From positions 108,068,001 through 108,132,000 of the forward strand of contig CM059431.1 in the NCBI GenBank assembly GCA_030390025.1: a stretch of DNA of 64,000 nucleotides. The letters are read 5' to 3'. Of this stretch, positions 63,444-63,879 are shown one piece after another. Source of the stretch: Squalus acanthias. Taxonomy: Eukaryota. The position numbers and the translations under genes are program-made. Position 1 is the stretch's first letter, and each line of letters starts with the position of its first letter. The notes under the pieces are model-generated. The model did not search any database. It saw nothing but the letters and a program-made list of their open reading frames with translations, and was not told where the DNA came from.

Positions 63444-63879
63444 TAGTAACACTTTACAACCTTCCAACATCAAATTCAACAATTTCAGATCATAACCACT
63501 GCTCCCATTTTTTTCGGACAGCAGTTGTTGGTAATGGTTCTGCTGTTGCCATTTACACCTCCTCTTGACCAGTCTTTTGTTTATTTACTTGTCCCATTAC
63601 CACCCCCTTTTGCCTCGCACCATCATCCCTTTTGTCATTTCATCACTCCTGCCTTCCACCCTATCACAGACCTTCCCTTTTGTTCTTGCCTTCGCCCCTC
63701 GCATCACCGCACCCCCACTCCTCCACCCACTTTCCCTTACTCTACACTTACTTAAAATCTGTTACATCTCTAACTTTTTCCAGTTCTGATGAAAGGTCAT
63801 CGACCTGAAACGTTAACTCTGTTTCTCTCTCCACAGATGCTGCCTGACCTGCTGAGTATTTTCAGCATTTTCTGTTTTT
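63444..63879 (+). mobile_element. Penelope-like retroelement 3' fragment
   Basis: Begins with ORF end TLQPSNIKFNNFRS* (resembles the GIY-YIG C-terminal TLxPxGLN region); 10-bp flanking repeat ATTACCCTTA (63434-63443, 63880-63889); contains a hammerhead motif. Confidence 0.7.
63782..63818 (+). ncRNA. Putative minimal type I hammerhead ribozyme
   Basis: AGTT-CTGATGA-A-AGGTC-atc-GACCT-GAAAC-GTT-AACT: core boxes, 5-bp stem II, 4-bp stem I, palindromic AACGTT in place of a stem III hairpin. Confidence 0.65.

What the first reader, a model, noticed from the sequence alone, without database searches (positions are those of the whole stretch)
63782..63818. Minimal, probably dimer-dependent hammerhead ribozyme in a Penelope-like insert
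Seen: CTGATGA (63786-63792), one extra A, stem AGGTC/GACCT, GAAAC followed directly by GTT, and AGTT/AACT closing stem I. Stem III has no loop but contains the palindrome AACGTT. Established: Penelope-like elements carry minimal type I hammerheads with palindromic stem III that cleave as dimers. Inference: this is such a motif, with predicted cleavage after GUU (63814). It is on the + strand, antisense to KLHL1, so it should not cut the pre-mRNA. An ORF track cannot show it.
Basis: partly seen in the sequence, partly recalled or inferred. Interest (0 to 1): 0.7.

Follow-up and report, generated by a model that had tools for sequence, protein, structure and literature searches.

The report
Penelope-element hammerhead relic in shark intron
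This short motif has the full layout of the minimal hammerhead self-cutting RNA known from Penelope-like jumping genes, and it sits alone in an old, truncated and likely inactive copy of a very abundant repeat, probably inside a shark-like KLHL1 intron on the opposite strand, so it is an ordinary example of a kind described in 2014.

Summary
The motif is real at 63782-63818 (+). It is the only full minimal-hammerhead match in 64 kb; 3 of 300 shuffles gave a relaxed match and 0 of 300 a strict one. It fits the published consensus for Penelope-like-element (PLE) hammerheads. Its loop-less C-G-U-U end occurs in 15 of 56 published examples; its A-U pair at 10.1-11.1 is a minority form (3 of 56). 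It lies in a 436-bp insertion with a 10-bp target-site duplication, in a family read at about 6-7.5 x 10^5 times flank depth and shared at this site with two other organisms. Three more insertions in the window show the PLE inverted-plus-tail anatomy. KLHL1 runs on the minus strand. Corrections: only ACGU forms stem III; stem I is not predicted in context; no partner core is in the window; the predicted cut is not among the top-listed copy ends. Stem covariation, cleavage and PLE protein identity were not shown. The scan found this kind before: 17 findings in at least 3 genomes, including this one. One side lead: two splice-acceptor-like signals bracket the motif.

The parts
63782..63818 (+). 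Minimal type I hammerhead motif; predicted cut between 63814 and 63815
   Evidence: fits Fig. S3 consensus of PMC4209133
63786..63792 (+). Core CUGAUGA (positions 3-9); 63790 is the free position 7, read as C in 44-69% of family depth
   Evidence: table 3
63794..63806 (+). Stem II, 5 bp with 3-nt loop, closed by A10.1-U11.1 and preceded by extra A 63793
   Evidence: pair probabilities 0.81-0.99 in three of four contexts folded, about 0.44 in the fourth
63807..63814 (+). G12-A13-A14, loop-less stem III (ACGU, 63810-63813) and U17
63444..63879 (+). Solo 5'-truncated Penelope-like insertion, no tail; last ATT (63880-63882) is shared with the duplication
63434..63443 (.). Target-site duplication, left copy (10 of 10 identical to right copy)
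   Evidence: 7 of 3000 random zone pairs share an exact 10-mer
63880..63889 (.). Target-site duplication, right copy
63445..63495 (+). 16-codon remnant ending in a stop; likeness to the end of a PLE GIY-YIG domain is recalled, not tested; orthologous contigs show 6 gap letters in the stretch that includes it
   Evidence: Pfam blank; tables 4 and 8
63770..63783 (+). Acceptor-like signal just before the core (CTAAC, pyrimidine run, CAG ending 63783)
   Evidence: same position as the D. virilis intron end; untested
63813..63836 (+). Second acceptor-like signal: branch-like TTAAC (A at 63816), pyrimidine tract, CAG ending 63836, then ATG
   Evidence: 8 of 8523 AGs pass a post hoc rule, 3 of the 8 are this family; absent from both arms of the 23.3-kb insertion
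23305..23508 (.). Same family: head-to-head inverted pair, tail on one arm, 14-bp duplication; lacks CUGAUGA
51182..51371 (.). Same family: inverted pair joined at GAAAC, tail on one arm, 9-bp exact duplication (13 of 15); lacks CUGAUGA
51754..51908 (.). Same family: inverted pair, tail on one arm, 13 of 15 duplication; lacks CUGAUGA
58583..58846 (-). Nearest KLHL1 coding exon (host gene context)

Best explanation
The motif has the layout of a minimal type I hammerhead and sits near the 3' end of a solo, 5'-truncated repeat insertion that is likely a Penelope-like retrotransposon copy, inherited passively and likely inactive at this site. In the parent element two such motifs on one tandem transcript would swap strands, pair their ACGU palindromes into a 4-bp stem III and cut after GUU, probably only slowly and with help from the element's own protein (inferred from published relatives). 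Here the copy was written in by target-primed reverse transcription at an ATT-containing site (inferred), it faces away from KLHL1 so the core is not in the pre-mRNA (shown), it has no partner core in the window (shown), and alone it is predicted to fold with GAAAC tied up in a downstream hairpin instead of closing stem I.
For: Shown: exact motif, above chance. Match to the published consensus U-rich / CUGANGAH / stem II / GAAAN palindrome NUH, with C-G-U-U in 15 of 56 rows. 10-bp duplication starting with ATT; ATT is the preferred cut of the anole PLE. Three sister insertions with inverted arms, a 36-40-nt tail on one arm only and duplications of 9-14 bp, as described for PLEs. Family depth in bin 63796-63821 is 1.0-1.4 x 10^7 against 15-19 in the flank, in 3 of 3 genomic-type runs; tail ends behind 63882 in 999, 1636 and 1906 contigs; 4 of 15 listed joints are strand switches at 63783-63802. 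The only hammerhead position among the 40 listed variant rows (of 131) is the free position 7. The insertion is shared with organisms B and D (records 17, 24, 25). Stem I pair probability is about 0 in the 3 longer contexts; the competing hairpin is 2.5 kcal/mol lower. The dimer-form fold scores -9.7 against -11.8 for two stem I+II monomers and -19.3 for the best co-fold (nearest-neighbour energies ignore core tertiary contacts).
Against: No RT or GIY-YIG sequence was matched, so 'Penelope-like' is by anatomy. Stem covariation was not demonstrated: the one window copy with a different stem II (23.3 kb) has its 5' strand inside the inversion junction. 91 of 131 variant rows were hidden. This copy keeps every core base and both CpGs although it differs from the family majority at about 20 listed places upstream, which is compatible with chance but also with constraint. 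The window ends 182 nt after the motif, so a partner further right cannot be excluded. No RNA reads were available.
Confidence: 0.85

Rival explanations
1. The carrier is a non-autonomous PLE derivative (SINE- or retrozyme-like) that is amplified from its own short RNA, not a truncated copy of an autonomous element.
For: Depth rises steeply toward the hammerhead, and heterogeneous 5' ends are listed at 63783-63785 in 197, 232 and 183 contigs. HHR-bearing tandem retrozymes were reported in the one cartilaginous fish sampled by bioRxiv 10.64898/2026.07.22.740005.
Against: This copy is not tandem, starts 340 nt upstream of the motif in what looks like an ORF end, and family depth continues there at 10^5 or more. 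5' truncation is the norm for PLEs.
Confidence: 0.07
2. In this family the fold matters less as a knife than as a structural landmark: reverse transcription stalls or turns back at it, which makes the short inverted copies. This can hold together with the best explanation.
For: 5 of 6 arms of the sister insertions end within stem II or GAAAC, 5' of the predicted cut. Strand switches are listed at 63783-63802. 63815 is not among the 24 listed loose-end rows (of 2028). In the anole PLE, cleavage was dispensable for insertion in vitro and no reads ended at the cut.
Against: Variation concentrated at the free position 7 suggests selection on catalytic bases (partial table). The anole motif does cleave with protein. 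The end tables are cut to their top rows.
Confidence: 0.15
3. This copy has been domesticated as a working ribozyme on an antisense transcript of the KLHL1 locus.
For: Intact core in an insertion old enough to be shared by three organisms.
Against: No partner core, no monomer stem III, stem I not predicted, and intact copies are expected among a very large family.
Confidence: 0.04
4. Chance motif in unrelated DNA.
For: The bare core pattern appears in 8 of 100 shuffles; Rfam finds no hammerhead.
Against: With stems required, 0-3 of 300 shuffles; it lies in a repeat with PLE anatomy at the place where such motifs are expected.
Confidence: 0.01

Closest known systems
[quoted passage not shown]
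   Same: Type I layout, CUGANGA plus one extra base, short stem I (4 bp), loop-less palindromic stem III, U-rich upstream run, dispersed single motifs from truncated copies; C-G-U-U end as in 15 of 56 listed examples (e.g. Tetraodon, Ciona).
   Different: Stem II closes with A-U, not the consensus G-C (A-U in 3 of 56 rows), and is short (5 bp, 3-nt loop). No cartilaginous fish is named among the 56 rows or in Table S1.
Anolis Poseidon element PAc and its hammerhead (Frangieh et al. 2024, PMC11167929)
   Same: Two 3' ends about a tail apart; ATT at the junction; genomic copies do not appear to start at the ribozyme cut.
   Different: PAc's ORF starts at stem II and its activity was measured; no ORF start or activity is shown here.
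Drosophila virilis Penelope hammerhead overlapping the 5'-UTR intron end (PMC4209133)
   Same: An acceptor-like AG sits at the 5' end of helix I here too (63783).
   Different: Splicing is shown in D. virilis and untested here; this family has a second acceptor-like site 22 nt after the cut.
Non-LTR retrozymes (bioRxiv 10.64898/2026.07.22.740005)
   Same: Type I hammerhead, PLE-related, reported in one cartilaginous fish.
   Different: Retrozymes are tandem units with a motif in each; this is one dispersed copy with a target-site duplication.

Membership tests
PLE min-HHR | Core CUGANGA ... GAAA ... NUH | tested here: met
PLE min-HHR | [quoted passage not shown] | tested here: met
   A63793
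PLE min-HHR | Palindromic 15.2-16.2, no stable stem III | tested here: met
   C63811-G63812, no loop; as in 15 of 56 published rows
PLE min-HHR | G10.1-C11.1 pair (over 80% consensus, not universal) | tested here: not met
   A-U here; 3 of 56 published members also have A-U, so a known minority form rather than exclusion
PLE min-HHR | Stem covariation across family copies | tested here: inconclusive
   No linked haplotypes; the window copies lack the 5' strands
PLE min-HHR | Core conserved, free positions variable | tested here: inconclusive
   Only position 7 is among the 40 listed of 131 variant rows
PLE min-HHR | Cleaves as a dimer, not as a monomer | not testable with these tools
   needs an in vitro assay
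Penelope-like element (EN+) | ORF with telomerase-like RT and GIY-YIG endonuclease | tested here: inconclusive
   only a 16-codon remnant; Pfam blank
Penelope-like element (EN+) | Inverted 5'-truncated partner and 30-40-bp tail at one end | tested here: met
   3 of 3 sister insertions; this copy itself has neither
Penelope-like element (EN+) | Short target-site duplication | tested here: met
   10 of 10 here; 14 of 14, 13 of 15 and 13 of 15 in the sisters
Rfam hammerhead families | Score above a curated model | tested here: not met
   no hammerhead family listed up to E 10
Non-LTR retrozyme | Tandem units each with a hammerhead | tested here: not met
   one core in 64 kb, closed by a duplication

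The most novel reading that the evidence does not exclude
The shark PLE hammerhead is wired into the 3' end of the element's own intron as a switch. Acceptor-like AGs flank it (63783 and 63836), and the branch-like A at 63816 lies two bases after U17, inside the stem I 3' strand. Spliceosome binding and ribozyme folding would therefore exclude each other, sorting the RNA into spliced message, cut RNA and unspliced copying template. That would give these puzzling motifs a function and help explain why PLEs keep introns when they jump.
Probability: 0.1. Interest if true: 0.55.

Novelty: new member of a known kind. Interest (0 to 1): 0.13.

Why it matters
As a single locus it matters little: it is one old copy of a huge repeat family carrying a motif class described in 2014 and noted 17 times by this scan. 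Its value is as material. Shark genomes appear to hold these termini in very large numbers, and my searches found no paper on shark PLE hammerheads as such (one preprint reports retrozymes in one cartilaginous fish). Such numbers would let copy ends, covariation and splice junctions be mapped at base resolution, to ask what PLE hammerheads are for, which reviews still call unknown.

Tried and rejected
No whole genome is held, so copies could not be aligned genome-wide. Pattern scans of metagenome, viral and prokaryote collections gave 33 and 12 loci; none showed homology beyond the searched motif, the longest match being 35 nt, so all 45 were dropped as chance. No RNA holder was listed; run X19 may be DNA and contigs cannot show ends or strand, so nothing is concluded on expression. 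Idea that the reading frame from 63789/63837 through the tail is the start of the PLE protein: no support (0 of 227 candidates at E up to 1; none; 2 hits, one a repeat artefact, one a 71-residue translation of the same repeat). This is a weak negative. Idea that the GAAAC-sequestering hairpin is a selected off-switch: 294 of 5000 shuffles do as well, so not significant. Spliced copies: no GT..AG joint among the 15 listed of 661. Covariation from the 23.3-kb copy: rejected as ambiguous because its 5' stem II letters may come from the inverted arm. Cutting of KLHL1 pre-mRNA in trans at the three minus-strand half-motifs: considered unlikely with only 4+4 bp of pairing; not tested. Lunse et al. 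(RNA Biol 14:1499) is not held; only its title was seen. Supplements of the bioRxiv preprint were not seen and may name the cartilaginous fish and its motifs.

Full report
Observation. With standard numbering: stem I 63782-85/63815-18, core 3-9 at 63786-92, an extra A at 63793, stem II 63794-98/63802-06, G12-A14 at 63807-09, then A15.1, C15.2, G16.2, U16.1 (63810-13) and U17 (63814). My descriptor found this one hit on both strands of the window. Shuffles with any hit numbered 3, 1 and 0 of 300 for relaxed, Watson-Crick and strict rules (the strict rule was fitted to the motif). The core pattern without stems is seen in 8 of 100 shuffles. Rfam lists no hammerhead. No second core with up to one mismatch was found.

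Host. The exon at 58804-58637 (minus) matches KLHL1-like proteins, with highest identity to cartilaginous fish: Chiloscyllium 95%, Rhinoraja 88%, Callorhinchus 87%. Three coding exons map to the minus strand, and the first ~130 residues found no match in the window. The motif is therefore inferred to lie in an intron, and it is antisense to the gene.

Carrier. A 10-of-10 direct repeat at 63434-43 and 63880-89 brackets a 436-bp insertion; 7 of 3000 random zone pairs share such a 10-mer. The insertion begins in a 16-codon stretch that ends in a stop. Its likeness to the end of a PLE endonuclease is recalled and got no Pfam support. The last ~75-85 bases recur in three other insertions. Each is a head-to-head inverted pair with a 36-40-nt extension on one arm and a flanking duplication of 14/14, 13/15 or 13/15. 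Papers describe this anatomy as typical of PLEs: inverted 5'-truncated partner, a 30-40-bp tail at one end, 8-10-bp duplications (PMC8557442 and PMC3846280, passages). In the anole element the tail is the stretch between two reverse-transcription starts and ATT is the preferred cut (PMC11167929, parts 1-2 of 4). The duplication here begins with ATT. None of the six sister arms keeps CUGAUGA; five end in stem II or at GAAAC.

Family in public data. I laid 4 of the 24 listed runs, all contigs. Flank depth was 18.5, 19 and 14.8; the bin 63796-63821 had 13.8, 11.8 and 9.9 million, a ratio of 6-7.5 x 10^5. The tool warns this is no copy number, so I read it only as a very large family. The bin 63770-63795 had 0.30-0.42 of that depth, which suggests many copies lack the 5' half of the core. 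Of 131 variant rows 40 were shown; the only one inside the motif is 63790 T>C, the free position 7, at 61, 60, 44 and 69%. Tail continuations behind 63882 were the largest loose-end rows (999, 1636, 1906 and 115 contigs). Heterogeneous 5' ends were listed at 63783-85 (197, 232, 183). The predicted cut, 63815, was not among the 24 rows shown of 2028. Four of 15 shown joints (of 661) are strand switches at 63783-63802. Single-copy-depth contigs cross the left junction in organisms B and D (5 and 11 other letters in about 240) and the right junction in B, so the insertion predates their split from organism A.

Folding. Stem II is well predicted. Stem I has pair probabilities 0.26-0.55 in the bare motif and about 0 in three longer contexts, where 63807-12 pairs with 63820-25 instead in two of them (-8.5 against -6.0 kcal/mol). 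That hairpin is not clearly selected (294 of 5000 shuffles). In a dimer only ACGU forms stem III (-1.7 kcal/mol). The longer palindrome AACGUU (-3.5) would pair A14 with U17, which the active core needs free (inference from standard numbering). A second palindrome, 63812-17, spans the cut.

Comparison. Cervera and De la Pena (PMC4209133; parts 1-2 of 4 and supplement parts 1-2 of 3) define the class: a base between 9 and 10.1, G10.1-C11.1, palindromic 15.2-16.2, and mostly single dispersed motifs. Their monomer did not cleave and dimers cleaved weakly. Counting their 56 aligned rows, 15 end C-G-U-U like this one and 3 close stem II with A-U; none is named as a cartilaginous fish. U17 satisfies the NUH rule (PMC3884650, passages). 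The anole motif cleaved only with protein, was dispensable for insertion, and left no reads at its cut. A 2026 preprint (parts 1-2 of 5 and passages) found HHR-bearing retrozymes in its one cartilaginous fish. Reviews were seen as passages only (PMC6765202, PMC6155905, PMC7761336, PMC7936874). The scan's notes hold 17 findings of this kind in at least 3 genomes, two of the eight shown from this genome; they agree with my reading but I did not check them.

Side lead. An acceptor-like AG ends at 63783, where the D. virilis intron ends relative to helix I. A stronger one ends at 63836 with a branch-like A at 63816; 8 of 8523 AGs pass that post hoc rule and 3 of the 8 are this family. Against it: the 23.3-kb subfamily lacks that AG in both arms, no spliced joint was listed, and the frame after it matched no PLE protein. 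One literature search (15 of 39 listed) and one notes search showed nothing on a branch point inside a PLE hammerhead.

Verdict. Real motif, correct reading, known kind, likely inert here. Shown: sequence, strand, duplication, sister anatomy, abundance, shared site. Inferred: PLE identity, insertion mechanism, dimer dependence, inactivity. Interest 0.13.

Noticed in passing
window 23305-23508, 51182-51371, 51754-51908: Three tiny head-to-head inverted insertions of the same family with one-sided tails and target-site duplications; 5 of 6 arms break inside the hammerhead, upstream of the predicted cut.
   Followed up: yes
window 51229 and 51802, minus strand: Two of the inverted arms put an acceptor-like signal (branch-like motif, pyrimidine tract, CAG) on the KLHL1 sense strand; possible cryptic splice acceptors.
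   Followed up: no
window 63783-63785: Many family contigs begin right at the 5' edge of the hammerhead with unrelated upstream DNA (183-232 contigs per run); the cause is unexplained.
   Followed up: partly
loose ends before 63826: A frequent related subfamily appears to have a different stem II loop and downstream sequence (303 and 390 contigs, agreement about 0.5).
   Followed up: no
window 63847-63867: A 7-bp hairpin is predicted near the tail-less 3' end, possibly the counterpart of the anole reverse-transcription start stem-loop.
   Followed up: no
window 32091-32648, minus strand: A 185-codon open frame with an acidic tail that looks like a Harbinger/HARBI1-type transposase remnant (recalled, not tested).
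   Followed up: no
window 21289-22194, 36090-36719, 62019-62900 and others: Open frames that look like CR1- and L2-type LINE reverse-transcriptase ends, with many dispersed 3' fragments (labels recalled).
   Followed up: no
P0122: A 71-residue JGI/IMG predicted protein resembles an in-frame translation of this repeat's 3' end, so host repeat DNA appears to yield spurious proteins in metagenome sets.
   Followed up: partly
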